Shown: positions 388 through 40,045 of the stretch, piece after piece
Layout of the letters: each line of letters begins with the position of its first letter
Numbering within the stretch: the first letter of the stretch is position 1
Assembly (NCBI GenBank): GCA_977862235.1
Contig: OZ374565.1
Coordinates: 868,001-932,000, forward strand
From: Dudresnaya verticillata
Taxonomy: Eukaryota
Length of the DNA: 64,000 bases
Direction: 5' to 3'
The notes under the pieces: generated by a model
Seen by the model: the letters and a program-made list of their open reading frames with translations, nothing else
Database searches by the model: none
What the model was told of the DNA's origin: nothing
Position numbers and translations under genes: made by a program

Positions 388-879
388 TGTGGTATAAAGA
401 ATGTCCACGGAGACGCGGGGAAGTCTCGCACTGTAAGGGATGGCCTCGGAGCCGAACGTGTGGCCTCGTAGCCTAAGGGAAAACGAAGAAAGGAAAAGGG
501 TTGTAGCGTGGTAGAGCGAGGCGAACGACGCGAAGGACCACGGTGTCAACGTATTCGTGAGCGGAAGGGAGAACTCGAGCAATCGATGACCGGGGACGAC
601 TCCGGGGGCGCAAGGCTATCGAAAGAGAGGCTCGACCGTATCCGCGGTCACGAACACGAAGATACCGAACTCGAAGAAACAAGTGTTTACCGAAGACTCC
701 GAGGTCCGGGCGCTAGTCGCTTACCGGAAACCGTCGAGGGTAGTGCTAGACGACTGGCGAAGTACTACTACTACGTGAGCACGAATACACGTCAACACGG
801 GAGACGGTTCGTACTCGAAGGATTCGTAACGGCCTCGATTCCAGTGAACAGTCGTCTCACGTATGGTGGCGTTTACGAG

Positions 880-1716
880 TGTGGCATAGCTGTAAGACCA
901 GCTGTGCCACGCACGCGCAGCTGTAAGACCAACTGCGCCACGTGTTCACCGCTGTGCGCACGCTGTCAGCCGGTGGTGCCGAAGCCCCGCTGAAACTGTA
1001 AGGAATTCACTGCGGCGCCCGCGCGTGCACGTGTACGCGTGTGACACTGAAACTCCCACGTAATTTCTACGTTTATTTTTGTGTAGTGTACAGCACCGTC
1101 TAGTTTAAGCGGCGGTCGAACGCCCTGCTGTCCTGCGCGCCGTGCGCACGCACTCCGACGTAGAGCCGTTGAGAGCGTGACACGCGCGCGCGTACTCCGG
1201 CGTCGAGCCGCTGAGTACCTGTGCACCGTTTCGACCACGCGCGCCCCCGGGTTACCGTTACCCGTACGCGGCGACGCGTGTCGGGGCGCGCCGGCGCACC
1301 TCCCGAGTTGGTGCCGCCGCAGGCCCTGTAGTCTATTTAGTAGTCGCCCCTCTGGACTTGAGTAAACAAGGCAACCCAGCCTACACCAGACTTTCCCCTT
1401 TCTGCTTTGGGTTTCTTTCCCAGTCCTTCGCCCTACGGCTTCCCTCTTTCCCTAGCCGCCTAGGCTTTCCTTTTCCTTTCCCTACCGTCGGCTTCGTGCC
1501 GCCCCACGACGGGGACGCAGGGATCCGGCCGCTTCCGCCCGCGTACGGTCCGCCCTGTGCGCGCTCAGGCTTCGATGCCGTAGAGCCGCGACCGTCGACG
1601 GCGCGCGCGGCCGACACCACGGCTCTACCACCACCACTACCACCCTTCGACGGGTCTGGCTGCGACTACGAGATCAGCCGCGCTAGACGTCAGTTCGACC
1701 TGACGTCTATGCCACA
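880..1716. mobile_element. Solo LTR (837 bp) inserted in the Gypsy-A 3' LTR
   Basis: Perfect 10-bp terminal inverted repeat TGTGGCATAG...CTATGCCACA. Perfect 5-bp TSD ACGAG (875-879 / 1717-1721). No coding capacity. Confidence 0.9.
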
Positions 1717-1983
1717 ACGAGGTGCGCCAGCAATGCATGCGGAGGTGCATGCGCGTCGTGGGCCTCGGAGCCGTTCGAGCAGGAAACAACGGGAAACAAG
1801 GAGGTGTCAGCGATTTCATGTTCGGTGCGCACGGTAATGCGAATGCCATCGTGGCGCGGTCACAGTATTTGCAATGTAATACGTTTGCCATCGTGGCGTG
1901 CGCGTTCATGGAATCACTTCGAACTTCGTATTTCTCGATTATTTTCACGAAGACCACGAAGTAGTTTTGCGCGCAGCGTCAAT

Positions 1984-4900
1984 CCCCATTGCTAGATGGT
2001 GATGATTTGGCTGTTCTCCAGAACCATAATTATTTTTCGAGAATAAATTGAACTCGTGATCCGGCGGCGACGCCCCTTGACCCCCGAAGGAGAATCGTCA
2101 CCGCTCCAACAAGAACTGCTTGATTTTGGAGAGTCTCGAAGCACAAACTGCTCACCTTCCGCGCCTTTCCCTTGTGCAAACACCGCCCACACACGAGCCC
2201 AACGTCAGCGTATAACCGCCCTCGCCGACCGTACAAAGAATTGGATCCAGGATGTCTGCACCGCTGTGGAAAGTGCGGCATCCTGAACCAAAACCTGCCA
2301 GCCCCAGCATCGTCTGAAGACGCAATGGCCCGCCACCAGAATGGCACAAATTAAGCGAGTGTCATCCGCGCCGCCAGATGTTGATCATGACATGCCGACT
2401 GAGCGTATTGCTCGATCTCTTTTTGGCGTTTTTGGCAGTGATTATGAAGCGGACGACCCGATTTGCGTCGAGGACCCAGGACAGTCTCCTGTGGGAGCAA
2501 ACTTTGATCGCGAGGGCATGGCAGTACTCAACACAACAACGACACCGATCCAGCGGGAAACCACGACAATCCACAAACAGTTCCGGGCGCGTGGAACGCT
2601 CCGATTTCGCAATGGAGAGACGATGTGCAGCAGGATCCACGGACGCCTCTCACGGGGACTACATTTGGTGCCCCGCAGCAGGGGGCCCAAATTCCTAACC
2701 CAACGACTGTTTGCCTACTTGATGCGGTAAACAACGACTCCTTGGACCCCTCTGATATAACATTTTCTTTATCGCAAGAAAGAAGGCAGCTTAATGACAG
2801 TGGAGATGACAGCATGTCGAGAAATTATTCTAATCCGGTAGGTGTTACAAGTGAGGAGCGTACATATCTACTTACGTTGTCCAATGGAATTCGAGAGGAG
2901 GTAGTGAACTCAGCATCGAGCGAGGCACTTTGTGAGGATATCTTTTCAATGCTGTTCACAGACTGTGACATTGAGCGGACATCTACACCGTGGGAAACAG
3001 GGGCACAGGTCGCCGGTGATGACGATGACGACTACGTTGAGGTAGAGGAGGAGATGGAAACGCGAACTGCTGCCCAACCAGCTAGACTGTCACAATGGTC
3101 GTACGATGATGCCTTTTGTACCGTTAGTGCTGCGTTTGATGATGTCGACAGTACGTTAGAGAAGCGATTTCTCAAAGAGGCGAATGGGATGCTGTCCCGC
3201 GTCCTGCAGGATGTTCAACAGCTCCGAGTGGAGCGAAAGTCGGCACAGAAGAACTCGGACGTCTCGAACGTGGTGTCAGATATCTTTGATGACTCATTTA
3301 CAAGACTTGAGTTCCTGCGCTGTTTTGTTACAGGTGCCCTGTTAGAAAAGCTGAAGCCTCACGTCAATCGCAGTCTAATCGCTCGGAAAAAAGATCCAAC
3401 GACCGGACAGGGGCTCTTGGCAATACTGGTCTTGCATATCCTGTGCGCCTCATACGATCAAAGTCCCACGATCGTATGCGATCCCGTTGAGAACAAAATT
3501 TTCTTCCAGATGGGCATTGAAGCCCAGCGCTATCATGAAGCCTGGTCTGCTCTCTCAGGGAGCGAAAAGAGAAGGGCGACAGTAATATATTCCAGTACGG
3601 AGTGGTGCAGAACCGCAGATTCAAATACGTCGCTAATCAACTTAGTTGAATGGGAGGTCGCCAACATTAACCGCCATCTGTACGTCCCAGGGGCCAGAAT
3701 CCTTTCTTTGGACGATGACCATTTGAGAATGGCATCTCGATCGGTTCTAACTCTAACACGTTTGCGACAGTACAACAATCCCAGAAAAGGCTTGGGTCCA
3801 GTCGGTAATGCACTTTGCAGTGCTCTCAATCCCGTCTTCCTGTCTTGTCACTTTACGCGATGCGGGGAGAAGCTTGTGCATACATGGGAGAGAGTGGTTT
3901 GTCTACGGCAGGGCGTTGCGCATGAAGGCGCGCTTAAACCAATGTCAGATGCTGTCTTCGCCGCCGATCGCGGCTACAACACCAAGGAGACCACATTGTT
4001 CATTTCTGAAAGGCTCGTTTCGACATTTCTTGGGACACATAAGCGCGACACATGGTACCCGTACGTGTTTGGGGACGGAGCTATTACAAAGAGGCATACA
4101 GGTCTGGTGATTTCCCAGAAGGGCTGCAGGGCAGTATATAACGCACGATGGGATCATGAAGGCTGTAAGAGACGTGGGCGGGAAGTAATTGCAAGTCTGT
4201 ATAGAGAAAGCCGCAGCGGACGTATTTCAGTATTGACTCATAACCATGACGTTATGTTTCCTCCCAGAAGATTCACAATTGTTCCACCCGAATGGTTCAG
4301 GAATCAGTTAAACGCAGTTGAGCTAGAAGAATTGTAGACAGTCTATATTGCTGTCCAAAAAGAAGGCCGGAGCCCCGGGGACGAGATAGCATCACATCAG
4401 CGAATGGTTAACGAGTTTCTTTCTCGTGTTAGGATGTTGACCTACTATCAGTCTGAGGACCCTCTTTGGTTTTTTTACGAGCTTTCCGTTTTACATCTCG
4501 CACATCGCACTCATTCCATTCAGCTTTCGCCTCGGATTTTGATGTGCACGTGCAGAGAATCTCGTTCCTGCTGAAGGGTAAGAGCCTGAGCACCACGGCT
4601 GCAGCACTTCCCGATGACGCCTCCGCGCTCTCAGATCAAATGAAGGTGAAGTGGGATGCTGTTATATATGTTATAGCTGTCGGGATGCGCAAAAGAGCGG
4701 CGTTAACTGTCTCGAATAGGATGCGAACTAAGGAGCATTTGCTGTCTTATACGGCGTCGCGACTTGGGCGTTTCACAATTAGTGAGCTAAAGTCTTTCCT
4801 GAACACGTTCTCAAGGCTACCTGTCGGACGAAAAACGAAAGCAGAATACGTCATGGCGGTTGTATTGCTTCAGGAAAACTTGAGGGCCACGGACAGTGCA

Positions 4901-6916
4901 GAGAGTAGTGAAGCTGCTGCTGGTGCACAAGAAAATAATGCTGAACAGCCCCATGGTATCGCTGCTTATACGACATTGCTCAAAACTTTGCAGAGTGCGT
5001 CATTGAGCGCCTGGGTCATGAAACCCTTTGTCTCAACCGAAGGCATGAAAGAAGGGAGCCGCAATGAAGAGAACGTTTTACATGCGCTACCCACGTTTTT
5101 CGAACATCGCGTAGGGATGCTACCAAAGGATTGGGGTACTGCAGAGTATTGTCTGGACCCCAACGGCAAGATATCAGTCAAGCTAATTCGGGCAGTGGGT
5201 CTGGTAGCCAGTCGTGGTACTGGGATTCTAGCGGACAGTGCAGAGGGATTGGCTGTTCTGACAAACACGGACTCACGCGTTATCGAGGAAACAATATTGG
5301 CGGCGATTGAAGTCAAAACAATGCCATCACTAAGACCTGCTTACAAAGCCGAGAAGATCGGTGAGGAGCATTCTGAAGCAGTTGTTGTGTCGGATGTTGG
5401 AATTTCAAAGGCTAGCGACGAGATGTTTAGAAAGCTGGTTCCAACTACTCCCTGCCATCTACAGTGCCTGCATCATGCCGCGGTTTACAACACCAGATGG
5501 GTTTTTTCGTGGTTGCGCGTGGCACAAACGGGGGAGCGGTGGAATAATTTACACATGCCTCATAGACTTTACGGAGACTCTACCAGAGTCGTGCAAGTAC
5601 TCACTTGACTGTATTTGGGGAGCAGGATTCCAATGGATTGGAAAGGGACACAAGGTGCATTCCGAGGGAATACGATGGCATATTGCAAAAACTCTCATGT
5701 CTCAGATTTATCCTCTTTTGCCTCGTACTACGGCTCGAGCCGAGCGGTGAATAGCCTCGTTCTGCAGACAGGCGAACCGCTTCCGCCTGCGGGTATGGTC
5801 CGCCTGACATCGCCTGTATGTTGGCACCACCTTAAAGGCGGTGTTGATATAATCTCGAGATACTTAAAGAATTTGGCTCGGTCTAACATGAGTGAAAGTC
5901 CAGTGGTCAGTATTGTGGCTTGTTTGTTGGTTCTTCAAGTGCATAATGCCGCCGTGCTTTATCGACTATATAAGGCAAGAAACTTGGGTCGTCTGCCAAG
6001 GACAGCGAGTGAAACCGGCGGAAAGGGCTATAAGTACAGCAGGCACAAAATGACGGAGTTCGAGACTTTCGGACGGTACGCTAGAGCGTTGTCGGAGGAA
6101 TGGTTACTTAAAAGTAACAGAGCCATGACACCTATGGGGAGCGGTCGAGTAAGGAAAACTACACCACTCCGCATGAAGCCATGGTTTTCCCGGGGTATTA
6201 TCGACAAGTATAACAGAGGGGTTGTCAAGAAACGGCGTCTTCGCGCACTTGTAAATCTCAGCACAAGCGTGCTATTGTGTGATGTGCACGTGGCGGCTAT
6301 ACAGCGATGTAGAAGGGGTGAAGCACAGCAAAGTTAAAGGAGCGAGGCAGGTGCGTTGGTGTGGAACCTGTAGGGACGCAATATGCAAAACGTGTTGGGA
6401 CCGTTGGAATAGCACTGCAGTGCTACAACGCGCTTGTCAGTCCGAAGCCGAGAAGCTGGCGTTTGACCGAGAAGTCAGGAACAAGAAGCGTCAAAAGAGA
6501 AACTGACAGAGGTAGGTACTCGGACGGGTGAAATAGTTGGAGTTCCCGAAGAGTACTGGACGATTGTCCAACAGGCGTCATCCGGTGTTTGCGGGATCCA
6601 TTTTAGTAGTACAGTGTGCCTTTAGTGAACAGTGCATGCACCATCTCTCCAAACAAAGTGAATGTCACACGAATTTCGTGAAGCTTTCATAAACTGTTGG
6701 ACCGATTTTTCCTTCGATTGGTCCACCTCAGAATTTTCAAACCTTTAGCGCTCCAAGTGTTTCTATGTGGCAGTTGAAAGGCACATGACTGGAGCCGTAT
6801 AACTCGCCCGGTTTGAATGAGGCCACCTGTTAATGCATCATATGTAACTGAGCGAAGCAATACAAATAAGACCCTTTCGGTCCTATCTTTTAACATCACG
6901 AAAACGGCCACGTGGG
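1984..6916 (+). mobile_element. Divergent piggyBac-like DNA transposon (~4.9 kb)
   Basis: Boundaries are fixed by the empty site in the sister LTR (agcgt-CTAT-agcaca). The insert starts CCC, ends GGG and is flanked by CAAT (1980-1983) / CTAT (6917-6920), a 4-bp duplication with one mismatch. It encodes a DDD transposase. Confidence 0.82.
2341..6506 (+). pseudogene. piggyBac-like DDD transposase with internal YqaJ/lambda-exonuclease-like domain, SAP motif and C-terminal Cys-rich domain (one stop, several frameshifts)
   Basis: Stitched from ORFs 2625-4337, 4466-5608, 5361-5750, 5615-6337 and 6279-6506. Transposase motifs: LSLDDD (D at 3711), AADRGY (D at 3966), WHHLKGGVD (D at 5846). Nuclease motifs: LTYYQSEDPLWF/LRAFRFTS, MKEGSRNE, ADSAEG, IEVK, LQCLHH. 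SAP-like FTISELKSFL..RLPVGRKTKAEYV. C-terminal CVMC...CGTCRDAICKTCW. Start codon uncertain (2341 or 2625). Confidence 0.8.
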
Positions 6917-6926
6917 CTATACCATA

Positions 6927-6943
6927 CGTCCCCCTCCTCAAGA
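6927..6943 (-). other. Polypurine tract of Gypsy-A
   Basis: Minus strand TCTTGAGGAGGGGGACG immediately precedes the 3' LTR. Confidence 0.85.
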
Positions 6944-7541
6944 GCGGAGGTCCCGGTCGCGTGTTACGAATCACGAATTGGCGTGGCCCGGTTTCCCTCG
7001 GAGGAGCGCGTGTGGAGCCATCCGACCGGCGGCGCGGTGATGCATCCAGCTAACGTTGTCGCGCAGAGGTGCCTCGGGGCTCAAGAATTTGAATTCGGAT
7101 TACGTGTGCGATGGCGCCTTCGTATTGGCTGATCACGGAGATATTTCGTATACGTAGAACGGGCTAGGGATTTGGCGCCGTCCGCCGACGCGTGCGCGCG
7201 CGGATCACGGAGATGGGGTGCGAACCGCGTGGGGTATTTCAACTTCGTCTTGCACTGGGTCCGAGCTCCTTTCTTCTTCTGTCATCGCTCTCACATACAA
7301 CTCGCTGCAGCGCCTTGGCTTTCGGTCTTCGCGGTCCCGTCTGCTTCTCCGTGTGCGTCTTTCCATCCGCGTGCGCCCTTCTCCACATCGTTCATTCCGC
7401 TCCGTGGCGCTCGTGTTGCTGCTCCGTTGGTCTCGGTGGTTTGCGGTGGTCGGTTGTGGGTCTCGGGTCTCGGTGTTGGGGCACGTGCTGCTGGTCCTCC
7501 ATGGGTTGCGTTGAGGTCGAATTCGTACCGCGGGTCCTTCG

Positions 7542-9525
7542 ATGGCGGACAAGGGTCACGGCAAGCGAACTGAGTCCCACGAAGAGCACGTCAATGCTAC
7601 TCCTCGTCGCCTCGAGGGTGAGCTCGCTGCTGCCGCGGAACGCGTGGCTGCGGCGCCTATGCAGGATGTTGCGGTGCCTCCGAAGGCTTCGCGTCTTTCA
7701 TCGAATGTCGCTGGTCTTTCGGTTGACTACGGTCAATACATGCCACGGACTCTCGCGATTCCGCACGTCGTGAACATCGGGGTTTCGGGGCCTCCGGGTG
7801 CGGCTGACCTCGGTAGTCCGTACGTAAGTTTGGGCGGATCGAATCCGCAATTCGTAAATTGTGGTTGGCAACCGAGTGCTTCGTTGGGTCCTCCGAGATT
7901 CGGAAAAAGGGTTGAGAGTGCTCCGAGGCTTCCGGCTGCGCAGTTGTACTTCGCGTGGTATGGGTTGGCGGTCTCCGGAGGTACTCACGAAGAGGTCGTT
8001 GCTTACGATGGCCGTGTTTGTCCGGATCTCGGTCGCTTTCGTGCGCTCTGCGAGGGTCACGATTATAATGGAGTTGGTGTCTTTCACGTATTGTGGCCCC
8101 GTGGCCCCGTGTATCCGACTCCGATGGGCCTTCCGTGTGACGTCTCCTACGTGGCCACGGTCGACGAGGTTGCTTACGTAGATGCGTGTGCTCGTGTGCT
8201 CCTGGTACCGTGTTCGTGTATCTCCGTGGATTATCCTGTTGTCGCAGTGGCCCGTTTTCGCGTCTTCCCGGAGTCCGAGTGCGCCACGGGGAACGTGTGG
8301 CGCCACGTAGATTCGATATCACACATCCTTCGTGTTCACATCGGTCCCGGAGACCGGGATCTGTTTCGCGGAGTGGGCACGATGCCAGACCGAGTGGGTA
8401 CGAATGCGCGTTTCTACGACCGAGTGCCCCTGAGCATATTTAAGAGTTCGTATTGGCTCGACAGTTTCGGTATTCGCGCCCCGCGGGCTTGGTCGTTCTA
8501 CCTCCGAGGGTGATTCGGTATTTCTGCCTCATCGTAGATACGTATCCGGAGCCAGAGAGGAAGTGCTTCGAACGTTTCCGTGACTCTGAGTATCGCTTCG
8601 AGCTGGGCCACGCATTGATATCCGTTTGCGCTAGTCGAAGCCATTCTCCGAAGATGGCGGTTATCCGGATCTTCCGCTCCGAGGCTCGGATCGTACGACG
8701 TTGTTTTCGAAGATGCTGGCGATTTCCATCGGGGCAGCCGATCGGAGGGAGCTCCAGTCGACTCGGCGCGATTTCCCGACGGGACAGTGGTCCCAAGTGG
8801 TCGTGGGATCCGGAGCCGGGTTCAATTGGAGTCACAACCGACCCTCACGAGGGGGACGCGGTCCGCGAGTCGATCCGTTTCCGCATCTGAGTGCCGTGGT
8901 TCGTGCCATCGGAGGGGATTTTGGTCCGTTGCCACGTGTTCCGCGTTTCGTAGCTCCGACTTCTTCGCCGTCAATGACTCTGCGGTCAACGCTTGGCACC
9001 GGGGCCGTTACATTGGTGCCCAGCGCTTCGCGTTCCTAGGTCGCGAGTCTCGAGGTGCTCTGCCCCACGAATATTCGTACTCTCGACTCCGTGAGTGATG
9101 CGTGTTGCGAAGCGGGCATCTCCCCCGATGGGACTCTTCGGCAGCTGATAGACGACATCGGGGGAAGCTTCCTTCGAGCGGTTACGGAGGTGAGGCGCTT
9201 TCGTAGGCAGCTTTGTGATCGGGATGCGGAGAGAGCGGACTTTCGTCATCGTATTCGGGACCTCGAGTTGAGCGGTAAGCGTCGGAGCGAAGGTTATGGT
9301 TATCCGAGTTACGACGCTTCACGTTACGGGTCTGGCTCCAGAGGCCCTTCGGGCTTCGGACCCAGCGGTGGCGATGGCTACGATGGTCACCGCGGACAAT
9401 CGCAGACATCGGATCCGAACGCCCCGAACTTGCTTCGAGTGACTCGTGACAAAAACGGAAGCGATCCTCGTGATAACCCCCTTACGACTCCGCGAATCGG
9501 TATGATCGCTCGTAGTTGTACGTAG
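7542..9525 (+). pseudogene. Antisense accessory ORF of Gypsy-A (frameshifted; unknown function)
   Basis: Consecutive ORFs 7542-8513, 8453-8890 and 9055-9525 lie between integrase and 3' LTR, opposite to gag-pol. They share motifs with the 955-aa antisense ORF of Gypsy-B. Confidence 0.65.
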
Positions 9526-10789
9526 CGGTAGAACCGAGTCTTTTTCTTTTAGCTTCGTAGCTGCGTTGTTTCTTCTTTTCGGTATCGAACTCCTTGTTCT
9601 CGGAGCTCAAGGTGGGGGGGCTCGGTCTCGTGGTATCGTCTCGAGTATAACGTCTTCTCTTTCTCGACTCTTCTTTTGCCTCGTAGCTGTAGGCACGTAG
9701 TTGTTAGCAGCGTAGCTCTAGCCTCGTAGCTTCTCAGAAACGAGCTTCGTGCTCAACTGTGCAAATTGAGACTGGTGTTGATTACGAATAGAATTACGCG
9801 TGTTTCCTTCGAGGAGTCGAGTCAACGAGACTTCGTAAATCTGTGTGCACGGCCCTCTCCTCAAGAAGAACGCGTCCACGCCGACGTTATGGGGGAAATA
9901 CGTGGATACGGAGAGCTGCGTGGGTGTTTCGATGATCGCGCTGAGCAAGTCGCGTGAGCTCCGGGGCTTTCCTGAGCGAACTGCATCGGTTGCGCATCGG
10001 GGCGCAGGCGAACGAGACTGCGGGCCGAAAAAGGAGGACTCTGTGGTTTTTCCGACGGCTCGTTATGCAGCGGGAAACAGGGGGCTCCGTGGCTCCGGCA
10101 AGGGGGTGAGGCGGCATGTGCGCTGCTCCGAGGCAAGCGATCGAGCGAAGTTGCCGTGATGCGCTGGTTGCGACTGCGAAGTGCGTCTTGCGGGTGGCAT
10201 CGGCCTCGAAGTATGACATGACGACAGGCGCGAATGACAAGTTGAGTATAGTGCGCCTTGTCCGTCCGTCGCGGAGTCAGACCCTGTGATGCGAGTGCCG
10301 CGGTGCAACCGTGTGCGTGTGTGAGCCGGTGTCGAATATCACGAAACTTGCTGTGTCCACCACCACAGTGGTGGGCGCGCCCATCGCGATACTGCTCGAC
10401 TGCGTGAGAAGCGACCTCGTGGTGGCATCGTGGCGAACGAATTCGAACATGCGGAGAAGGCGTCGTGTTGCCGCCGAGGGCTGCGTTGTCGTACGTCGCC
10501 CGCAACCGAAATTGCACAGCGTGAGATGCGGGGTGACGCCCATCTGCTCCGAGGCAACCGTATGCGTCGGGGCAGTTGTAGTGCGCGAAGAAGGCGCGTT
10601 GCGAAGTACGGCGACCAAAATCACGAGGTGGTGCCAGGAGGGGCACGTAGCGGCACTGTGCAAACGTATGTCCCGGAGCCATCGGAATGCGCACTATCGC
10701 AGTCAGCACGTGTGCAAGAACGTAGTGGGGCGCCGGGGCCGTTCGTATGATGAGCTTCGTGTGCCGCGCAACTCGAGTGGGCGTAGGCG

Positions 10790-13700
10790 TTATTCATGCT
10801 GCGGAGTGCGGATCACGAATTCGGAGCTACGGAACCATTCGGGGTCCCAATCGGAGAGCCATTCGTGGGCGGGTAGCACGGGATCACGCGGGTCCGCTTG
10901 TATTCGAAGCCTTGCGAAGTAGCGCGAAACGAGTTCTTCGGGCACTTGCGTACGAGGTTCCCACGTAGGCGTCGCGTAGCCGTCCTACTTGATACGAAAT
11001 ACGACGTTGCCGTCGTCTTCGGTCACGTGATCGAGGATCCGATCGACAACGTATTCGGGGCCTTCGGTGACCTTCTCCGCGATATCTTTGGGTCGCGTTA
11101 TTGATGGTCTCGAATTCGATGGCGGGGACGCGTAGATACAGCGGTCCGCGGAGACACGTTCCACGAGGCCCTTACGGTCGATCACGAGTGTGCGCGTATC
11201 ATTGAATAGAACCTTATACGGCCCATCCGCGGGGATTTAAACTTCGGAAGTTTCGTTTTCCCATCATGGGTATCGAGGAAAACGTAGTCTCCGGGTTTGA
11301 CGCGGCTCTTCCTGCGGCGGATGCGCTTATCGAAATCGCGTTTGTAGCGGTTTTGCAAGCGTTGTAACGAAGTGCGTGCGGAGTTGATTGCGACATCGAG
11401 TCGCTTAATTAAATCGTTGCGAATGTCCTCCGTGGGTTTCGGTCGGTGCTTCCGGGAGCGATGATTGACCGTGAATTCGGGCGGCGGTCGCGATAAAACG
11501 ACATTGAACGTAATTGTCTTCGTAGACCGATGAACGTGGCAATTGTACGAATACGTTAACGCGGAGACATGGCGATCCCAATCGTCTTGATGGTCGTTCA
11601 AGTAGTTACGAAGCATCGTGAGGATAGTCCGGTTTTATCGTTCTGTTTGTCCATTCGTTTGAGGATGATACGGGGAGGTGAACACGTTCGATAACCCGAG
11701 TAGTCGGCAGACGCCCTGAAAGAACTTCGAAGTAAGTTCTTTTCAGTTATCCGAGAGCACCGAGGCTGGCGGTCCGTACTTGAAGATCCAAAGTTCGTAA
11801 AACGCAACTGCGACGTGATACGCTGTTATGACTCGTAATGTGGCCACCTGGGTCACCTTCGGAAATAGATCCGTAATCACGAGTATGAACTTGCTTCCGG
11901 ATTTCGTTCGGGGCAACGGGCCTAAGATGTCAATCGCGACCGATTCGAGGGGGCGCATGGCGGGGAAGAGCCTCAATCGTTGAAGGTTTCTTCGTAAACG
12001 AATTCGATTTCTCGTGCAGTGCTTGCAATTTCGAACCGTGGATGCGATGTCGGCAGCCATGTAAGGACAGTAGTTCGTTTCACGTAGTGAGTAGAACATG
12101 AAATTCTGCCCCGGGTGGCCAGCGAGTAACGAATGATGCACTAGGGTAAGTATCCGGCGTCGGAGCGTTTCGGGCAATACGATTTGCGTTAAATTCGTAA
12201 TTATCGGATGCGTTCTTCGCAGGGGACCGTCTGCATCTTCGTGAAAGAGACTATGTTTCGTTTTGGATTGTCGTGCTTGCACCGTTTGGCAGAACGAATA
12301 AATACACTGTCCCTCGAGGATCTCAGATACGGTAATCGGTGCGGGTAGGTCTACGCGTTTGACATCGGTTAGTTCACGCGGTTCTTCGTTAGGATCGATT
12401 CGATAAAGGTCAGACAGATCATCGTCATCGATATCGTCCCATAAATCGTAGTCATCGTAGACATTGTTTTGTCCTGCGTATTCATCACGTAGTGCTTCGT
12501 CGTGTGCGTGGGCGCAACATTCGTGGCGTTGAGGATGGTGAGCTTCGTAATCTTTCGGGACCTCCGTGGATCTTTGCGTAGTGCCTTCTCGAATTATCCG
12601 TTTTGCGGGCGTAGTCGTCCGCGTGAAGAGGTGGCGAATCGCGTTGACTTTCGATTGACGTTTGCGAGATCGCGTAGTGATGAGAACCGGGTCTCTTGCG
12701 TTTTCGATAGTTTTTTTATGTCGTTTCGTAAACGTGCTTCGTTCTTTGCTGCGTTTTGATCCGAGTCAAACGTAGGCACTTCGTCTTCGATTGCGGGTTA
12801 TTCGTGATGCGGGAGTAGCAACCTCGAGAGGGCATCGGGAATCTGGTGGACGCGACCGGGGCGATACAAGATTTCGAAGTCGAATTCAGCTAATCGCAGC
12901 CGCCCTCGCGTGAGTCGCGCGGACGAATCGGTGAGAGAAAGAATCCAGCGGAGCGCGTTGTGGTCCGTACGTACGGTGAGCAGGGTCCCTTCGATATACG
13001 GACTAAAGAGGTAACCGCCCTTACGACTACGTACCATTCGCGCTCGGTTGCGGAGTAGTTCTTCTCGGCATCTTTTAACGAATAAGACCAGTATCCCAGC
13101 GGTTGGAACTCTTATTTATCTTGCTTCTGTAGAAACGCGCACCCGAGGTGATACGCAGACGCGTCGGTATCGATGATGTAACGTTTCCCGAGTTGCGGTA
13201 GCCGGACTATCGGCGGTGACATGAGCTTCCTTTTGAGCGTTTCGAATGCGGTAAACTGATCTTCCTTGGGATTCTCGTAATCAGGATCCACGTCCTTTCG
13301 TGTAATGTCCGTAAACCGTCGCGCAATTTTCGCGAAGTCTTTCACGAATCTTTGGTATACGTTACACGCGCCGAGGAACAACCGGACTTGGGTGAGTGTC
13401 TTTGAGAACTTCTTGTATCGGAATGCCTCGGAGCTCTTCTCGGCCATACTAAGCTTCCCCGGGGAAATTACGTGTCCGAGATAGTCGACTCGTTTTAGGA
13501 AGAGGAAGCACTTCTTCATCTTGAGCGAAACCCCGGAGTGACGAAGTAGCGCGAGGACTTGATCGAGATGCGCGATGTGTTCACGAATATTCGCGGAGAA
13601 AACGATCATGTCATCGAGGTAAACGAGGCGGCACTGCCAACGGACTCCGGATAGAATGATATCGAGTGCAAGGTGAAACGTAGCGGGCGTGTTTTCAAAC

Positions 13701-15300
13701 CGAAGGGCACACGAAGATAACGATAAGTTCTGAGAAATGAAGTAAACGTGTTTTGTCGCGGTCTTCCGGGGCAACCGGAATCTGCCAGTACCCGCTGCTA
13801 CAATCGAGTGTCGAGAAAATCGAAGCGTCTCCGAGGGAATCGATACAGTCTTCCATCCGGGGAAGCGGGTACGCGTCCGATAGTGTCTTCGTATTTGGTC
13901 TTCGGTAATCCACGCAAAAACGAAGTGTTCCGGCTTTCTTCGGTGCGAGTACTACCGGAGACGCTCACTCCGAGGTGGCTGGTTCGATTACTCCTGCTTT
14001 GGCGTACTGTCGATTTCGTTGCGGACGATTTCTCTTGTTACGGGCCCTTGGCGATAGGGCATCGAACGAATAGGTCAAGTTCCGGGTTGTACATCGATAC
14101 GATGCTCCGTGGCTGCGATCGTTCCGAGGTCTTCGTTCCAGACCGATTCGTGCTTTCGTAGCGTCTCGAGTACCTCATTTTGCGTAGTTTCGTCGGGTAT
14201 CTTCAAAAAGTATACGCGTTCTTCCCAATCGCGAGAACTCGAATTGGCTTCGGTAGTCGCGGTCGCAGCGCCTTTCTTGAGCTGTTTTCCTTCGTGGATA
14301 CGGATTCTTCCGGTGAAATCGAGTCGTCGTGCTGGCGTAGCGTAGAAATGTTGAGCACCTTGGCAAACGAATCCGTGACTTCGCGATCGGTTGTCAAAAT
14401 CGCGAGCGGGTTTCGAGATGCGTATCCGATGACGGTTCCCTTTCGTAGAGATCGAGGCTTATCCGTGAAGTTCGCCATCAACACCGAAAGCTCGCAATTC
14501 GGACTGATATCGTGTATCCCGTTCGTGAACCATACTCCGTTTCGGTGTTGTAACGAAGGTTTCGGTTCGATGTGAATCAGCCTGGGCGCTTCCAAGGTCA
14601 CGGTGACTAGCTTCTGCGAATACCTCGGGATAGTGAGTCGGCGGTTCAAACGAATGGTGCGGGGGTCTCGGTCCCAATCGTGCATCTCGCGTTGATGTCG
14701 CTTCGATAGCGTTTTCCCGAATTTCTGCTTCGGATTTTTCGAATTAATAGCGAGCGGAGCCGATCCAGAAATACGGTTGGTAATCAGGCTCGTGCCTGCC
14801 CGCTTCGTATGGAGCCTCCGTGGGCTGAGCTCGATGCTTCATAAATGCACTTTCATCCACGAAGTTCCAAGGAGAACGTCGACTGCGAGTTTTTCCGCAA
14901 CCACGAAGGGTACGCGGTATCGAACGTTCCCAAGGCGGACTGTCAGGTAAACGATACCATCTAGTCGCAACCGGGAGCGATCAGCGGACGTGAGCCTCGG
15001 AGCTGGTTGCAATCGTATGCGGCTTCATTACGGAGGCATTGAGGCCAATGGATCCGGTCACGAGGAAGATCTCCGATGTCATCAAGCAAATTGTATCCCT
15101 CGGTGTAACTTCGGGTTCGATTTACGAAATCGGTATCTTCTTCGAATTGTTTTCGGACGAAGCGGCTTTCGCAAGGACTCGACATCGCGTTCGGTCTCTT
15201 TGTCGTGCAGCGCGCTTCTTTCACATCGCAGCGGCTCTTGGAATCTGAATACGCGGAGTGTCTCGGGGAACGGATTCAGACGAAGTACGTGACACAACGG
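10790..15300 (-). pseudogene. pol: Gypsy-A pol (protease, RT, RNase H, integrase, chromodomain), many frameshifts
   Basis: RT: DAYPLPRMEDCIDSLG, LDCSSGYWQI, VYLDD. RNase H: DTDASAYHLG, RTDHNAL. Integrase: HHSLLAGHPG..CKHC, VAIDILGP, SDN. Chromodomain: EYVVDRILDH..IK*DGYATPTWEP. Confidence 0.93.
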
Positions 15301-15312
15301 GTGTCTTCGCCT

Positions 15313-17789
15313 TTACTGGTTTTTCGAATTCGAACTAGAATCCGAATCCAGAGGGTGTGTGTCCGAAGGCGTGGTTGATCGCTCACCTCTTCTGTTATTC
15401 CCGGAGTCGTCGTAAGCCTCCGAGGATAGGTTCGGGTGACTCGGCCCAATCGCGTCAACGTTTTCACGGACTGCGAGAACCGGTTGGCGGCCCGGAGCCT
15501 GCGCGTGTCTCGGATTGCGGAGGACGGTTGGCGGTCCTCGACGCTCAAAGCTGACTTGACGCCAGGCCCGGTACCTCGGGTAGCGCGTATCGCCTTGACG
15601 AAGGTCTCGGTTTACGCGATTGTCACGCGATCCTCGGGAGTTCTGTCCACGGTGACCTCGATTGTCCACGGATTCGAACGAATTCCCTCTAGCGGCACCG
15701 CGATTCACCAAGTTATTACGAGTGTACGGTCTCGTCTCGAGTTGATAGAGTTACCTCTGGTACGCACAGTAGAGTTGTTGCTCCTTCGTGAGATACGGAC
15801 ACAAATACATCAGGTCACCGATTTCGCGACAGAACCAACACGGCCACGCATCCTGGTTCTTCGGGATCATCGAACGCGCCATCTCGATTTGCTCCGGGGT
15901 CATCGGGGGACACGCGCGGGTACGAAACGCTCGACGCGACTCGTAAGATCTAATGTATCATCTACGGAGACCATTGTCGAAGTAGTCGGTGTAGCGGAAG
16001 TGGACCCGGGTCCTGAACGAATCATCATCACGGCCATTTGCGGATCTTCGTTTATCGGGTACTCGAATTCACTTCCGGGGTATCGTAAGCTTCGGTAAGC
16101 ATCGTGCGTCCGGGCGCTCGACGACTCTTCGGGTACGTAGCAGACGCTCGGTTCTTCGAATCACGCGATTCTTGGGCCGCGGTGTCACGATGTTCATGAG
16201 CTTCGCTGGAATGTCGTGTCTTCGGCTTGCGCGATTCGTTGTATGCTCATGAATTTCTTTTGCTCGGACAACGGTAAACAGAGAACCTGGTGCGCCCGAT
16301 AGGATACTTAGTAGGTAGTACTCCACGAATAAATTGGTGCGTTAACGAAGAGTCATCGTAGACACCTGAGCGGACATCCGCGTAGGCTTGTAGACGAGTC
16401 GGGAATTCCATCTCGGTTTCTTCGGACTTCTGCTTCGCGGTAATCACGCGATCGTGGGCGTCAGCGATTACGTCTTCTGAGAAATCGTTGGAGCAATACG
16501 TTCACGATAGCGGACCAGCAAACCGGGTTGCCAGTACGAACGCCTCCGAAGGCATAGTGTTGATACACCTTGAGCGCGGTCTCGTCGAGGAACCACGAGA
16601 TCGTACGAACTGCTGCTCCTTCGGTGAGCCCGACTCCGTTCAGCGCTTGTCGAATATCACGAAGAAATGAGAGAACCTCAATTGGATCGCGTCCCGTAAA
16701 CTTCTCGAGTCTCGGCATCATCGAACGCATGCGCGAAACGGTTTTCGACGTGTTACCTCGGAATACTTCGTGTTGGTTATCCCGAGGTGACGAATTCGTG
16801 AGTCGATACGATCGATAGCTTACGGCCCGCGCGAATTCGGGGATGAGCGTCGGTATCGGTTCGACGCCCGGCTCGAGCGATCCCCAGGGCCAGAACGATG
16901 ACACGGGTCCCGCGAGCGATAACGAATTTTCGATTACGGGTCCTCCGGGGGACATCGGTGGTTGAAGTGAATCTCGTAATACTGCCGGGTTGATACGGGG
17001 GTTGTCGGAGGCATCCGTTGCCTGATGCGATAAAGAGTGCGAAGACTGATTCGGATACGTGTTTTTCGGTAACGTAGATTGGGCACCCGGGCCTTGCACG
17101 GGTTCAACTAGCGGAGAATTGCGGGGATCAGGACGGGCTTCGGGACGATCTTCGCGACTTCGAGTCTTTTCCTTCGGTAACGCGGCGGACGCGATTTCAC
17201 GAATAGCGTTCAACTGTTCCTCCGAGAATGCGTGCGAGCTGCGAACGGGAAGCGAGTGACTCTCCTTGCCTACGGGGGCGGATACGTTGCGTTCGAGCAC
17301 GAGAAACCGGTTGCTGACTTTCGAGACGAGATCCCGGAGACTCTCGAGTGAGTCTTCGATCCTACGGGCCTTGCCAGCGCGGAAATGGTCGAACTCTGCG
17401 TGAACTCGATTATGCGTATTACGAATTGAGAGCTGCGTGATACGGTACGCAGTGGAAAGCGCATCAATGACCTCTTCGTAGAGTAAACGTAGTTCTGCAC
17501 CGGAGACTTCATTCATCGATAAGAGTCGATCGAAGGTATCCGAGGGAACGATTTCTAATGGAGTGTACGTGTACGAAAGGTCCGACTGGCTACCGTGAGC
17601 CTGCGAACGCGAGTCTGTGCGAAGATCGGGTACCGTTATACGTGAAGCGCGAGTGCGAGAAAACGGTTCTCGGTCACTCGCGTTCGAGTCGAATAACGGG
17701 AGCTCCGGAATCGGTACGTCATCGGGTTTCGGTACCGGCGAATCGGGACGACTCGGAGCATGAGACATCGTGTCTCGGATAGAAACCAA
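15313..17789 (-). pseudogene. gag: Gypsy-A gag (frameshifted after 16461)
   Basis: 442-aa ORF just downstream of the PBS. FARAVSYRSYRL and FTGRDPIEVLSFL match Gypsy-B gag FVKALDFRTYRL and FNGTDPITVLGFL. It ends at a slippery site/stop at 15313. Confidence 0.85.
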
Positions 17790-17820
17790 TTACGAATAAA
17801 TGCGAAACTTCGGAACCACG

Positions 17821-17838
17821 TTCTAGGTCGGGAGACCA
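17821..17838 (-). other. Primer-binding site of Gypsy-A (probably tRNA-Tyr)
   Basis: Minus strand TGGTCTCCCGACCTAGAA, 1 nt from the 5' LTR and identical to the Gypsy-B PBS. Confidence 0.85.
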
Positions 17839-17839
17839 G

Positions 17840-18585
17840 TGTGGTATAACGAAGTCCACGGTGACGCGGGGAAGTCTCGCACTGTAAGGAATGGCCTCGA
17901 AGCCTAACGTGTGGCCTCGTAGCCTAAGGGAAAACGAAGAAAGGAAAAAGGGTTGTAGCGTGGTAGAGCGAGGCCACAGATGCGAAGGACCACGGTGTCA
18001 ACGTATTTGTGCGCGGAAGGGAGAACTCGAACAATCGATCATCGGGGACGACTCCGGGTGCGCGGGGCTATCGAAAGCGAGGCTCGACCGTATCCGCTGT
18101 CACGAACACGAAGAAACCGAAATCGAAGAAAAAGGCCTTTACCGAAGACTCTGAGTTCCGGGCGCTAGTCGCTTACTGGAAACCCTCGGAGGCCGTGTAC
18201 TACTACTATGCGTGAGCAAGAATAAACATCAACACGGGAGACGGTTCATACTCGAATGATTCGTAACGGCCTCGATGCCAGCAAACGGCCGTCTCACATA
18301 TGGTGGCGTTTACGAGGTGCGTCAGCAATGCATACGGAGGTGCATGCGCGTCGTGGGAATCGGAGCCGTTCGAGCAGGAAACAACAGGAAAACACGGAGG
18401 TGTCAGAGATTTCGTATTCTGTGCGCACTGCAATGCGAATGCCATCGTGGCGCGCGCACAGTATGCGCACTGTAATGCGTTTGCCATCGTGGCATGCGGG
18501 TTCACGGAGTCACGTCGAAATCCGTACTTCTGGATTATTTTCACGAAGAGCACGGAGTCGTTTTGCGCACAGCGTCTATAGCACA
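17840..18585 (-). repeat. 5' LTR of Gypsy-A (746 bp)
   Basis: TGTGGTATA...TATAGCACA termini; homologous to the split LTR at 388-6926. Confidence 0.92.
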
Positions 18586-22889: not shown

Positions 22890-25129
22890 CCAAGCCCTCT
22901 AAGTGGAACCACTCAGTGGAATGGGGTACGTTCCACTTATTGAGAGGTTTCAGTTGGCTGGAGGCATACAGTACAAGTGTGTCACATTTATTTGAAGAAT
23001 TGATCAACGCGGGTTTGTCGCATGCGCAGTCCTTTCTCGACACGTAGCTCGCCCTGTAGATTCCTCAGGCCTCTGAACAACTTGTTATCTTCCCCTTGAC
23101 GAGCACCGACAATGCACTTCACACGAGCGATGGCAGCGAATTGCTCCTGTAATGAACCAAGGTGGGTAGGCTCGGTTGGTTCCTCAACGCTGATCTCATC
23201 GGTAGCACGTCCCCCCGAACCCCTGCATTGACCACTGAGTCCACCATGTCCATCTCAGTTGTAACCTGTGTGACCTCCATCTCGTCTTCCCAGCACAAAA
23301 GATCCGATATAGGAATGCGCCTGTGCTCGGGCACTACGGAAGAAATTGAAGAATTAACATCCTCCGCCTCGAAGTTCGGCTCTTCTGTGCACTGTACAGC
23401 TCCCTCCATTGTGCTAGTTACATTCGATCCCATCAAAACAGTTGTACGCCAACAATTCGAAATTGTTTCGGCCGTGATTTCCTTCCATACATCCGTAAGC
23501 CACCTCATTGCAGAAAGTATGTCCACTTTGTAAATTTCCCCAGCCCCGATGTCTGCTAAATCTACGGCGTATTCCATTTGACGCCGTCTATAGCGGAGTT
23601 TCATTGCTGCAATAATTCCGGCGTCGAGAGGCTGCAGTCGACTTGTTGTGTTGGGAGGAAGGAATTGCACAGAAAAGTTCTGTAGTGACGGCAGAGAATC
23701 AATGGAACCATGAGCAGAGCAATTGTCCATCAAGAGCAGGACGTGTCTACTCGGAGTTTTTCGAACGTGGGCGTCAAATGCGAACAACCAATCAGTAAAA
23801 AGCACAGATGTCATCCATGCCTTCTTGTTGCTCTTGTAGCTCAGGCCCAACTCTTCTGGTTTTTTTCTTTTTGAAACATCTCGGTGACGTTGCAGTACCA
23901 ATAAGGAACAATGGCACCTTTTCTGAGCCATCTGCGTTACAGCAGCACATAAACGTGAACCTAGACTTTTGTTTCTTGCGGCCAGAGACAGAGCAGCTGG
24001 CTATGGTTCTGTCTGGTGCCATTTTCCAAAACAATCCCGACTCATCGCAGTTGAATACATCTTTTCGACTGTATTGTCTGACTTTGTCCTGCAGTGATGG
24101 GAGGTCTCTCGATACCGTGTCCTCGGATACGTCACCACTTTCGCCATGCAGAAGAAAAGAACGTAGTTTCCAACGTTGTTTAAAGCGTGCTATCCATCCA
24201 TCAAAGAACTTCATATTTTTCTTCTGGCCTTCTGTGACTTGTTCATTTGCCAAAGAAGCTAAACGCCGCGCTTTCTCCTGAATCATCACACCCGAAATGC
24301 AGCGCCTGTTGTGACTCATGTCACAAATCCAGGCATAGATGGAGTTGTCAAGCTCTGTATGTCGTGGGCTAGAGCAATGGAACATGTTTTCTGAAGTCGA
24401 TTCGGTGTCTTGCGGGGCAGAGGCGTTGATAATCCGTGACATAATGGCTTTCCCCGGCAATTTCCGCAGCCCGTACTGGACTTGGCCCACTCCGCCAGGG
24501 CCGCATGTGTTGCTTTGCGGCCATCACTCAGGCGAGCGTTACGTTCCTTCACAATGCCGCGCTTTTGCGCTAGGGACAGACTTTGAAGTGGCATGGAGGC
24601 CTCGGTTGATTATGGGGACGAGGATCGCTCGCAAGGAATGGGGAGAAGTAAAGCATGCGGACACTTTGCTTTGAGGCTCTATCCATTGTGGGATTTTATC
24701 ACAAGCAGCCCTCATGAACGTAACCGTCAAGCAGGACCAACTTGGTCCGTTACGACACTTCATTGTGTTGCGTTGCACCCACTTAGTCCGTTACGATACT
24801 TCGTTGTGTTGCGTTGAATGCAAGACAACGAAGTGTCGTAAGACGTTACGACGCAACACAACGACGTGCCGTGAGACGTTACGACGCAGCACATCTTAGT
24901 GTCGTAACGTCTCTGAAGGCTGCTTACAGTCTAAGAAAAGACTTTTATGTGTAATGTATGAGTATTTAGACTGAACTGAAGTCACCAAAACATGGTTCCA
25001 GTTAAGCAGAAATGGAACTTTCTTCTTTTTTAATTAAAATTTCGCATCCACGACCATGGTGGATTGGAATTGGTTCCAGTTACACGTAGGTTCCACTTGC
25101 AGCGGGTTCCACTTAGAGGGCTTTGACTG
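22890..25129 (-). mobile_element. pogo/Tigger-family DNA transposon
   Basis: TIRs: AAGCCCTCTAAGTGGAACC at 22892 and GGTTCCACTTAGAGGGCTTTGACTG ending at 25129. TA on both sides. The outer bases of the left TIR are slightly deleted. Confidence 0.9.
23119..24594 (-). pseudogene. pogo/Tigger (CENP-B-like, DDE_1) transposase, frameshifted
   Basis: ORFs 24316-24594, 23792-24490 and 23119-23931. HTH/CENP-B-type GWIARFKQRW, LHGESG. Catalytic motifs VFNCDESGLFW, LLLMDNCSAH, LQPLDAGII (33 residues between D2 and D3). Confidence 0.92.
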
Positions 25130-29498: not shown

Positions 29499-29504
29499 TC
29501 TTTT

Positions 29505-29522
29505 TGGTCTCCCGACCTAGAA
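29505..29522 (+). other. Primer-binding site of Gypsy-B (probably tRNA-Tyr)
   Basis: TGGTCTCCCGACCTAGAA, 6 nt after the LTR. Confidence 0.88.
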
Positions 29523-29663
29523 AGGCAGTCAAGGTAGAAGAATCTCCGTTGGACTCCGCTTCGGTAGGAGATCAGCTTTGTGACAACTCCGTATTAGTGT
29601 AAAGGCAGGACAAGGCAAAACACTCGTTGACTCCATTTTGGTAACCTAAGAGTAGAAGAACAC

Positions 29664-40043: not shown

Positions 40044-40045
40044 TC

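What the first reader, a model, noticed from the sequence alone, without database searches (positions are those of the whole stretch)
2341..6506. piggyBac-like transposase with a complete YqaJ/lambda-exonuclease-like nuclease (plus SAP motif) built into its catalytic core
Seen: after mending one stop (4335) and a few frameshifts (two in T-runs at ~4470 and ~5502), a single ~1,300-aa protein emerges. Its order is LSLDDD (D1, 3711), DRGY (D2, 3966), a nuclease block, WHHLKGGVD (D3, 5846), then a C-terminal CxxC...CxxCx4CxxCW. The nuclease block reads TxxQx5WxxxRx4TS, SAP-like helix, MxxGxxNE, GL, ADSAEG, IEVK, Q. Established: piggyBac transposases use a DDD triad with a 'GGVD' third motif, have ~100 aa between D2 and D3 (the insertion domain) and end in a Cys-rich domain. 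The block motifs are the signature of YqaJ/lambda-exonuclease PD-(D/E)xK 5'->3' exonucleases of phage recombination systems. Here D2-D3 spans ~625 codons. Inference: this is a two-nuclease transposase in which the exonuclease may resect or process donor/target ends or promote homology-directed repair of the excision site. As I recall, lambda-exonuclease domains are known in some Kolobok elements and divergent piggyBac lineages are catalogued from red algae/oomycetes. An exonuclease nested inside the piggyBac RNase-H fold is not something I recognise as characterised.
Basis: partly seen in the sequence, partly recalled or inferred. Interest (0 to 1): 0.92.

Follow-up and report, generated by a model that had tools for sequence, protein, structure and literature searches.

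The report
piggyBac-like transposon with built-in exonuclease
This is a broken 4.9-kb jumping gene, likely from a red alga, whose piggyBac-like cutting enzyme carries a second domain inside it, predicted to be a phage-lambda-type DNA-end-chewing nuclease that would help the element multiply by steering how the excision site is repaired.

Summary
Confirmed and extended. Window 2727-6494 aligns end to end (570/1222 identical) with an intact 1,315-aa Chondrus crispus protein. This copy is dead: one clear stop, six frameshifts. Relatives from four groups about 20% alike keep the order D1-D2-exonuclease/SAP-D3-Cys-rich; 21 of 21 that span D2-D3 carry the nuclease. An AlphaFold model of a relative matches piggyBac (Z 19.8) around a whole lambda exonuclease (Z 14.2). 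The window's own block matches lambda/LHK exonuclease (Z 12.0), though sequence profiles barely detect it. Both active sites and the 5'-phosphate pocket are nearly invariant. New here: the ends are 1984-6916 (CCC...GGG, no long inverted repeat) with a CTAT duplication (left copy CAAT), fixed because the element splits one LTR of a gypsy element. Best mechanism (inferred, 0.45): the nuclease resects the donor ends, blocks seamless rejoining and forces repair from the sister copy, so the element gains copies. Not found in ten paper searches; Repbase could not be checked. Precedents: KolobokE, ISL2EU, Dada. The scan noted this architecture before on other DNA (diatom-type, clubroot).

The parts
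1984..6916 (+). Whole transposon, 4,933 bp, 5'-CCC...GGG-3', no long terminal inverted repeat; decayed copy
   Evidence: the flanks joined over one CTAT match the partner LTR without gaps over 110 nt; two searches found no convincing long TIR; GC 0.50 against 0.59-0.60 in the flanks
1980..1983 (+). Left target-site duplication CAAT (one mismatch to CTAT)
   Evidence: the partner LTR has CTAT at the same position (18576-18579)
6917..6920 (+). Right target-site duplication CTAT
2727..6506 (+). Broken transposase gene (homologous part); one clear stop and six frameshifts; true start not determined (2341 unsupported)
3246..3700 (+). N-terminal half of the piggyBac-type dimerisation/DNA-binding domain (approximate limits)
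   Evidence: Weak Pfam DDE_Tnp_1_7 hits on the matching part of relatives (E 9.7e-5 P0009, 6.6e-4 P0017); model of P0107 aligns to 6x67 from residue 117
3711..3713 (+). Catalytic D1 (LSLDDD)
   Evidence: D in 11 of 11 relatives that reach it
3966..3968 (+). Catalytic D2 (ADRGY)
   Evidence: D in 11 of 12
4030..4290 (+). beta5 and the presumed three-stranded piggyBac insertion domain (inferred)
   Evidence: Strands 354-360, 405-409, 416-422 and 431-437 in the P0107 model, at low pLDDT 35-72; PMC7351741 for the topology
4425..5750 (+). Lambda-exonuclease/YqaJ-fold PD-(D/E)xK domain, with a helical/SAP insert between motif I (Q..W..R..TS) and motif II (MxxGxxNE)
4763..4870 (+). SAP-like helix-loop-helix
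   Evidence: Pfam SAP E 1.6e-6, above the cut-off, on the aligned stretch of P0017; no Pfam hit on the window's own sequence; the least conserved region, 23% within the clade
5846..5848 (+). Catalytic D3 (LKGGVD)
   Evidence: Family profile aligns to T. ni piggyBac 433-530, E 2.9e-4, top hit in the PDB sequences; D in 12 of 12
6270..6410 (+). C-terminal Cys-rich domain
   Evidence: aligns weakly to piggyBac 544-591 (not significant alone)
388..1979 (-). Host 3' LTR of a minus-strand Ty3/gypsy element, part to the left of the transposon (holds a further insertion at 880-1716)
   Evidence: 87% identical to 17840-18579; RT and integrase on the minus strand at 13112-13951 and 11743-12765
6921..6945 (-). 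Last 6 nt of the split LTR and the adjoining polypurine tract of the gypsy element
   Evidence: the minus strand reads GAGGAGGGGGACG directly before the LTR
17840..18585 (-). Partner (5') LTR, which serves as the empty-site reference

Best explanation
This is a decayed copy of a cut-and-paste DNA transposon whose single protein joins a piggyBac-type DDD transposase to an internal domain predicted to be a 5'-phosphate-dependent 5'-to-3' exonuclease, which likely resects the donor ends after excision so that repair from the sister copy would restore the element and raise its copy number. Shown here: the ends, the 4-bp CTAT duplication, the domain order, the two predicted folds, and near-invariant catalytic residues in both domains. 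Inferred from piggyBac (PMC7351741): a dimer nicks each end, forms and opens hairpins, integrates with a 4-nt stagger, and leaves complementary 4-nt 5' overhangs at the donor site that can be rejoined without a trace; this holds for CTAT/ATAG as for TTAA. Inferred from position: the nuclease follows the insertion domain, which in piggyBac lines the channel for target DNA, so it would sit on the flanking side, not on the transposon ends. Hypothesis: it chews back the 5' overhangs of the donor break before they are ligated, which turns a copy-neutral move into a net gain by gap repair. The SAP-like motif would stand in for the DNA grip that lambda exonuclease gets from its trimer ring.
For: Architecture: (21 of 21, in 13 clusters at 90% identity). 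Folds: 6x67 Z 19.8, rmsd 4.9, 361 aligned, model 84-1002; 1avq Z 14.2, rmsd 3.2, 209 of 228, model 480-884; window block, pLDDT 83; Z 12.0. Catalysis kept: positions matched by motif to lambda Q19, W24, R28, T33, S35, G81, E85, S117, E129, K131 and Q157 are invariant in 12 of 12 proteins, D119 in 11 of 12 (lambda sequence), while the clades share only about 23-26% identity. R28, S35, S117 and Q157 form the 5'-phosphate pocket (PMC3239189, passage); E85, D119 and K131 are catalytic and L78 is the wedge (PMC7496540, passages), and the L78 position is M in 11 of 12. Recent mobility of the family: two Chondrus crispus copies on different contigs are 98.6% identical as proteins. Lambda-type exonucleases were acquired also by KolobokE and ISL2EU (PMC9587614, PMC4122938, passages), which points to a benefit common to cut-and-paste elements.
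Against: No experiment or sequence signal here shows the substrate. Host nucleases can already resect breaks. An unrestrained exonuclease could damage the transposon's own ends. The nuclease's position in the transpososome rests on a monomer model of a 20%-identical relative (mean pLDDT 56.8, pTM 0.52; insertion-domain region 35-64). Sequence evidence for the YqaJ call is weak: Pfam YqaJ E 0.053 at best, 3 of 40 fragments; hhalign against lambda exo 2.2% and 0.1%; Foldseek E 0.011 for the window block. The residue equivalences are by motif, not by a residue-level superposition. The TSD rests on one insertion with one mismatch.
Confidence: 0.45

Rival explanations
1. The nuclease trims the 4-nt 5' overhangs from the transposon ends or from the strand-transfer product. 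With a non-palindromic target (CTAT/ATAG), an insertion in the reverse orientation would leave flaps that cannot pair with the target.
For: The TSD is CTAT, not palindromic. The 5'-phosphate pocket is conserved. Hairpin opening leaves 4-nt overhangs on the ends (PMC7351741). A monomer without the ring may be non-processive, which suits short trimming (inference).
Against: Host flap nucleases do this job for other DDE elements (my knowledge). A fixed orientation to CTAT would need no trimming. It does not explain the gain of such nucleases by unrelated superfamilies.
Confidence: 0.25
2. The second nuclease takes over a cutting step of transposition (second-strand cleavage or hairpin opening), as TnsA does in Tn7 (recalled), so the element does not use the piggyBac hairpin route.
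For: A PD-(D/E)xK domain tethered next to the active site. The loop after D1 and the termini differ from canonical piggyBac; there is no long TIR.
Against: The DDD core folds most like piggyBac and Tn5, both hairpin enzymes (Z 19.8 and 16.3). The 5'-phosphate pocket points to an end-dependent exonuclease.
Confidence: 0.12
3. The nuclease acts outside transposition chemistry, for example by degrading excised competitor DNA, silencing RNAs or other nucleic acids, as herpesvirus SOX does with RNA.
For: SOX and BGLF5 share the fold (Z 8.6-9.3) and are monomers (PMC3239189, passage).
Against: Such a role would not need the domain to stay inside the catalytic fold in 21 of 21 proteins. The best matches are DNA exonucleases.
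Confidence: 0.1
4. The domain is a catalytically dead DNA-binding scaffold, or a chance nested insertion or assembly artefact.
For: The window copy has E for the catalytic D and is full of lesions.
Against: Catalytic and pocket residues are kept across clades about 20% alike. It is in frame in intact relatives from several sources (ENA, JGI, NCBI, Logan). It has no ends or TSD of its own that any call showed.
Confidence: 0.04

Closest known systems
Trichoplusia ni piggyBac and Myotis piggyBat transposases (PDB 6x67/6x68, 9c0f; Pfam PF13843)
   Same: Best structural match (Z 19.8 and 18.1); DDD triad with GGVD; helical DNA-binding domain on both sides of the core; C-terminal Cys-rich domain; CCC...GGG termini (CCC as the piggyBac end is recalled); 4-bp TSD
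   Different: D2-D3 is 531-627 residues against 101 (D346-D447, PMC7351741); internal exonuclease and SAP; TSD CTAT, not TTAA; no long TIR seen; 10-12% identity
Phage lambda exonuclease / LHK-Exo / YqaJ family (PDB 1avq, 3sm4, 3syy; PF09588)
   Same: Fold over nearly the whole chain (Z 14.2 and 12.0); catalytic E-D-ExK; 5'-phosphate pocket R/S/S/Q; W24
   Different: Embedded in a transposase; about 150-residue helical/SAP insert between motifs I and II; no partner annealase gene in the element; trimer formation not tested; 13-14% identity; below the Pfam cut-off
KolobokE and ISL2EU transposons (PMC9587614, PMC4122938)
   Same: Eukaryotic DDE transposons that encode a lambda-exonuclease/YqaJ nuclease
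   Different: There the nuclease lies downstream of the transposase domain (KolobokE) or in a separate ORF (ISL2EU); other transposase superfamilies; Kolobok has TTAA TSDs and RR...YY ends
Dada transposons of Laccaria and Ectocarpus (PMC3706591)
   Same: An exonuclease nested inside the DDE core after the second D
   Different: A DEDDy 3'-5' exonuclease in a C/DxxH-type transposase; targets small-RNA genes
Chondrus crispus CDF34053.1/XP_005713872.1 and CDF37961.1/XP_005717830.1
   Same: Same family, 47% identical over 1,222 codons; same domain order
   Different: Intact; annotated only as unnamed or 'PiggyBac transposable element-derived protein domain-containing', with no mention of the nuclease in the names shown
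Repbase 'piggyBacX' / 'piggyBacA' groups (recalled; from no call)
   Same: As I recall, divergent piggyBac-like groups, one of them from red algae and oomycetes; this family may be one of them
   Different: Could not be compared: 'piggyBacX' occurs in none of the listed papers and the review I recalled is not held

Membership tests
piggyBac superfamily | RNase H-like DDD catalytic triad with the third D in GGVD | tested here: met
   the profile's top PDB hit is 6x67 433-530, E 2.9e-4
piggyBac superfamily | piggyBac fold: DNA-binding/dimerisation domain, catalytic domain, insertion domain | tested here: met
   on relative P0107: Z 19.8, 361 aligned, ahead of Tn5 (16.3); Foldseek E 3.1e-5; Pfam PF13843 above the cut-off in P0137, not in the window pieces
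piggyBac superfamily | C-terminal Cys-rich domain | tested here: met
   CxxC...CxxC...CxxC in the window and similar Cys clusters in full-length relatives
piggyBac superfamily | TTAA target and TSD | tested here: not met
   The TSD is CTAT/CAAT; one insertion only. Filed as piggyBac-like, not as a canonical member
piggyBac superfamily | Terminal inverted repeats beginning CCC, with subterminal repeats | tested here: inconclusive
   Ends are CCC...GGG and share GTGATG 15-20 nt inside, but there is no extended TIR; the copy is decayed
piggyBac superfamily | Hairpin intermediate and seamless excision | not testable with these tools
   Needs biochemistry
Lambda exonuclease/YqaJ family | Lambda-exonuclease fold | tested here: met
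Lambda exonuclease/YqaJ family | Catalytic E85/D119/E129/K131 and phosphate pocket R28/S35/S117/Q157 | tested here: met
   by motif: 12 of 12 except D119 (11 of 12); the window copy has E at D119
Lambda exonuclease/YqaJ family | Pfam YqaJ (PF09588) above the cut-off | tested here: not met
   Best E 0.053, 14.2 bits against a cut-off of 22
Lambda exonuclease/YqaJ family | Toroidal trimer and processive 5'-3' activity | not tested
   No complex prediction was run; activity needs an assay
Kolobok (KolobokE) | [quoted passage not shown] | tested here: not met
   CTAT TSD, CC...GG ends; nuclease between D2 and D3; features from PMC9587614
ISL2EU | YqaJ protein in a separate ORF; THAP domain on the transposase | tested here: not met
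   A single ORF in intact relatives; no THAP hit in Pfam scans; features from PMC4122938
Repbase piggyBacX/piggyBacA (recalled) | Sequence match to the Repbase entries and their TSD | not testable with these tools
   Repbase is not held

The most novel reading that the evidence does not exclude
An undescribed, old lineage of piggyBac-like transposons, spread over red algae and other protists, with a non-palindromic CTAT target and a two-nuclease transposase that destroys its own cohesive donor ends. It would be a cut-and-paste element that encodes its own switch from seamless excision to copy gain by homologous repair, and a natural transposase-resectase fusion.
Probability: 0.35. Interest if true: 0.85.

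Novelty: new variant of a known kind. Interest (0 to 1): 0.66.

Why it matters
How cut-and-paste elements gain copies, and why several superfamilies carry accessory exonucleases (KolobokE, ISL2EU, Dada), are open questions. piggyBac is the sharpest test case: its chemistry is solved and its seamless excision gives no copy gain by itself. Here the nuclease is in the same polypeptide, intact genes exist in a named genome (Chondrus crispus), and the ends and TSD of one copy are now defined. DDD and D-ExK mutants can therefore separate the two activities. A piggyBac-like enzyme with a CTAT target and a coupled resecting domain could also be useful in genome engineering. This window copy is itself a fossil.

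Tried and rejected
No genome is held for this window, so other copies could not be collected. The look-up of sequencing runs listed no run (no evidence either way). No second copy, and no second end, lies in the window. Pfam on the 7 window pieces gave nothing relevant. hhalign of the family against lambda exo alone gave 2.2% and 0.1%. The profile of the nuclease block against PDB sequences gave only mimivirus R354 at E 0.85 and a designed helical protein at E 0.0026, read as chance. DNA scans: metagenome contigs gave 1 partial locus of 128 pattern matches (L001); viral contigs 0 of 22 and 0 of 1; prokaryotic genomes 0 of 18. These scans need exact short motifs and are weak negatives. Searches for long TIRs gave only 9-10-bp matches at chance level, such as 2176/6592; rejected. 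TTAA-flanked ends were rejected: the TTAA sites at 2351, 2791 and near 6830-6890 fit no boundary. Introns were not invoked, because the relatives align through the stop and shifts without gaps. The ESM Atlas did not answer. The wide structure library was not searched, so folds that Foldseek ranks low were not examined. No complex prediction was run. Paper searches that found no description: piggyBacX/piggyBacA, YqaJ+transposase+piggyBac, Kolobok+exonuclease, piggyBac+Chondrus+exonuclease, piggyBac+insertion domain+lambda exonuclease (60, 0 papers), piggyBac+lambda exonuclease-like+Repbase, a six-term search, piggyBac+CTAT (73, 0), transposase+YqaJ+SAP (78, 0); one search was for lambda residues. 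Most listed papers were seen only as listings.
Full report
1. What is in the window. The gene is in pieces on the + strand. Pfam finds nothing relevant in the 7 pieces, so I turned to relatives. No genome is held for the window. The host is likely a red alga, because the only named close relatives are from Chondrus crispus; this is an inference.

2. Intact relatives. The nuclease block (P0001, window 4457-5608) found 99 proteins among 1.84 billion representatives, 6 of them at E below 1e-30. Several are single ORFs of 1,260-1,331 aa. A search with P0017 gave 7 full-length proteins among 7,990 candidates, including Chondrus crispus CDF34053.1; a second Chondrus copy, CDF37961.1, lies on another contig and is 98.6% identical. 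The window aligns with the Chondrus protein from residue 49 to 1313, 570 of 1,222 identical. The lesions are a stop at 4335 and six frameshifts (about 4473, 5504, 5527, 5650, 5685, 6245); a second stop at 6252 appears in 3 of 5 alignments. Two shifts lie in T runs and could be sequencing errors. The stop, the other shifts, the D-to-E change in the nuclease and the TSD mismatch show real decay. ATG 2341 has no homology support.

3. Is the nuclease part of the transposase? Of the 141 fetched proteins scanned with the family profile, 21 span both D2 and D3, and all 21 contain both ends of the nuclease; they fall into 13 clusters at 90% identity. Most were found through the nuclease, so this count is biased. 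A search with the transposase half alone gave 24 proteins among 7,994 candidates; 7 span D2-D3 and all 7 carry the nuclease, and the other 17 are fragments that do not reach D3. Four groups about 20% alike share the order. D2-D3 is 531-627 residues against 101 in piggyBac (D346-D447, PMC7351741, passages). Pairwise identity in the transposase core and in the nuclease correlate (Spearman 0.83 over 55 pairs, 0.71 over 21 pairs within one clade; pairs are not independent). This fits an old fusion.

4. Folds. A model of relative P0107 (1,175 aa, 21 sequences, mean pLDDT 56.8, nuclease core 76-93) matches T. ni piggyBac best (Foldseek E 3.1e-5; Z 19.8, rmsd 4.9, 361 aligned, model 84-1002 to chain 117-536), then piggyBat (18.1) and Tn5 (16.3). 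Inside that span, model 480-884 matches lambda exonuclease over 209 of 228 residues (Z 14.2, rmsd 3.2), then LHK-Exo (12.7) and mimivirus R354 (12.4). The window's own block folds with pLDDT 83 (71 sequences; its last 35 residues or so are out of frame). Its top matches are lambda exonuclease (Foldseek E 0.011) and LHK/lambda exonuclease (Z 12.0). Among viral models the top hits are YqaJ and alkaline exonucleases and IS4 transposases. By sequence the family profile finds piggyBac 433-530 (E 2.9e-4), and PF13843 passes its cut-off in P0137. The YqaJ signal by sequence is weak. SAP passes its cut-off only in P0017. The nuclease appears to be inserted after the three strands of the insertion domain and before the helix that leads to D3; that region of the model has low confidence.

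5. Active sites. In 12 long relatives, D1 is kept in 11 of 11 that reach it, D2 in 11 of 12 and D3 in 12 of 12. The positions matched by motif to lambda Q19, W24, R28, T33, S35, G81, E85, S117, E129, K131 and Q157 are invariant; D119 is kept in 11 of 12 (lambda sequence). The one exception, P0115, has also lost D2. R28, S35, S117 and Q157 bind the 5' phosphate (PMC3239189, passages); E85, D119 and K131 are catalytic (PMC7496540, passages). So the family keeps both nucleases, and the second is predicted to act on 5'-phosphorylated ends.

6. Ends and target site (new). An earlier scan note mentioned a CTAT duplication in a diatom-type relative; I took it as a lead. The transposon lies inside a minus-strand Ty3/gypsy element (LTRs 388-6926 and 17840-18585, 87% alike; RT and integrase; 5-bp TSD AGCCC/AGTCC). 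The left LTR follows its partner up to 1979. The partner goes on CTATAGCACA; the window reads CAAT, then CCCCATTG. At 6917 the missing end resumes, after GGG: CTATACCATA. Only 2 sites between 1984 and 17800 match that 10-mer at 8 of 10 or better, and this one is followed at once by the polypurine tract. The joined flanks align with the partner LTR over 110 nt without gaps. The element is therefore 1984-6916, 4,933 bp, CCC...GGG, with a 4-bp CTAT duplication (left copy CAAT). It inserted after the retrotransposon did. No long TIR remains or existed. This rests on one insertion.

7. How it likely works. piggyBac nicks each end, forms and opens a hairpin with 4 nt of flank, and leaves complementary overhangs at the donor site that rejoin without synthesis; its insertion domain lines the channel that holds target DNA (PMC7351741, passages). 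The same logic works for CTAT/ATAG. Seamless rejoining removes the donor copy, so a move gains nothing unless it is timed to replication (my knowledge). A 5'-phosphate-dependent exonuclease tethered on the flanking side would remove the cohesive ends and leave 3' tails, so that homologous repair copies the element back from the sister chromatid. I give this 0.45. Trimming 4-nt flaps (0.25) is made plausible by the non-palindromic target. A role in strand cutting (0.12), a role outside transposition (0.10) and a dead scaffold or artefact (0.04) follow. No step of the nuclease's function was tested.

8. Comparison with what is known. It works like piggyBac by fold, triad, Cys-rich tail and 4-bp TSD, but fails the TTAA test, so I file it as piggyBac-like. 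Lambda-type nucleases are known in KolobokE, downstream of the transposase (PMC9587614, passages), and in ISL2EU, as a separate ORF (PMC4122938, passage). An exonuclease nested in a DDE core is known in some Dada elements, but of the DEDDy fold (PMC3706591, passages). PMC6431247 and PMC5718144 (passages) did not mention this architecture in the passages shown. Nine searches for it found no description. I read no supplements. Repbase, its reports and the review I recalled are not held; I recall a Repbase group 'piggyBacX' from red algae and oomycetes, and this family may be catalogued there. The scan has noted the same architecture in other genomes (7 findings, unchecked notes); none came up for this sequence, this genome or red algae with CTAT.

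9. Verdict. It is a new variant of a known kind, with a testable and unusual two-nuclease design and now with defined ends. The window copy is a fossil, and the function is inferred. Interest 0.66.

Noticed in passing
window 388-18585: Minus-strand Ty3/gypsy element with 87%-identical LTRs and a 5-bp TSD (AGCCC/AGTCC), itself inserted in an LTR-like repeat whose unbroken copy lies at 26164-26703. It holds the transposon and a further insertion: four nested layers.
   Followed up: partly
window 880-1716: 837-bp insertion in the same LTR, with TGTGGCATAG...CTATGCCACA ends and an ACGAG duplication; looks like a solo LTR.
   Followed up: partly
window 28821-40720: Younger + strand gypsy element (LTRs 98.8% identical) with a 955-codon antisense ORF at 37163-40030 that has no Pfam hit. 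The older gypsy has antisense ORF remnants at the same relative place (7515-9525); blastp between them was not significant (E 0.055).
   Followed up: partly
window 23119-24523 (-): Broken pogo/Tigger-type transposase (DDE_1 E 7.6e-36, HTH_Tnp_Tc5).
   Followed up: no
window 53568-57047 (-): Host gene for a La-domain protein (E 1.1e-12), probably La-related.
   Followed up: no
L001 77-100: In a related partial copy, TTAA-CCC is followed by ATGGTG at the same offset (13-18) as in the window's left end. It may be that copy's left end, which would mean the TSD varies within the family; post hoc, one case, and the right end is missing.
   Followed up: partly
window 49760-49847, 51805-52012, 24752-24872: Long imperfect palindromes in the self-comparison; possibly MITEs.
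   Followed up: no
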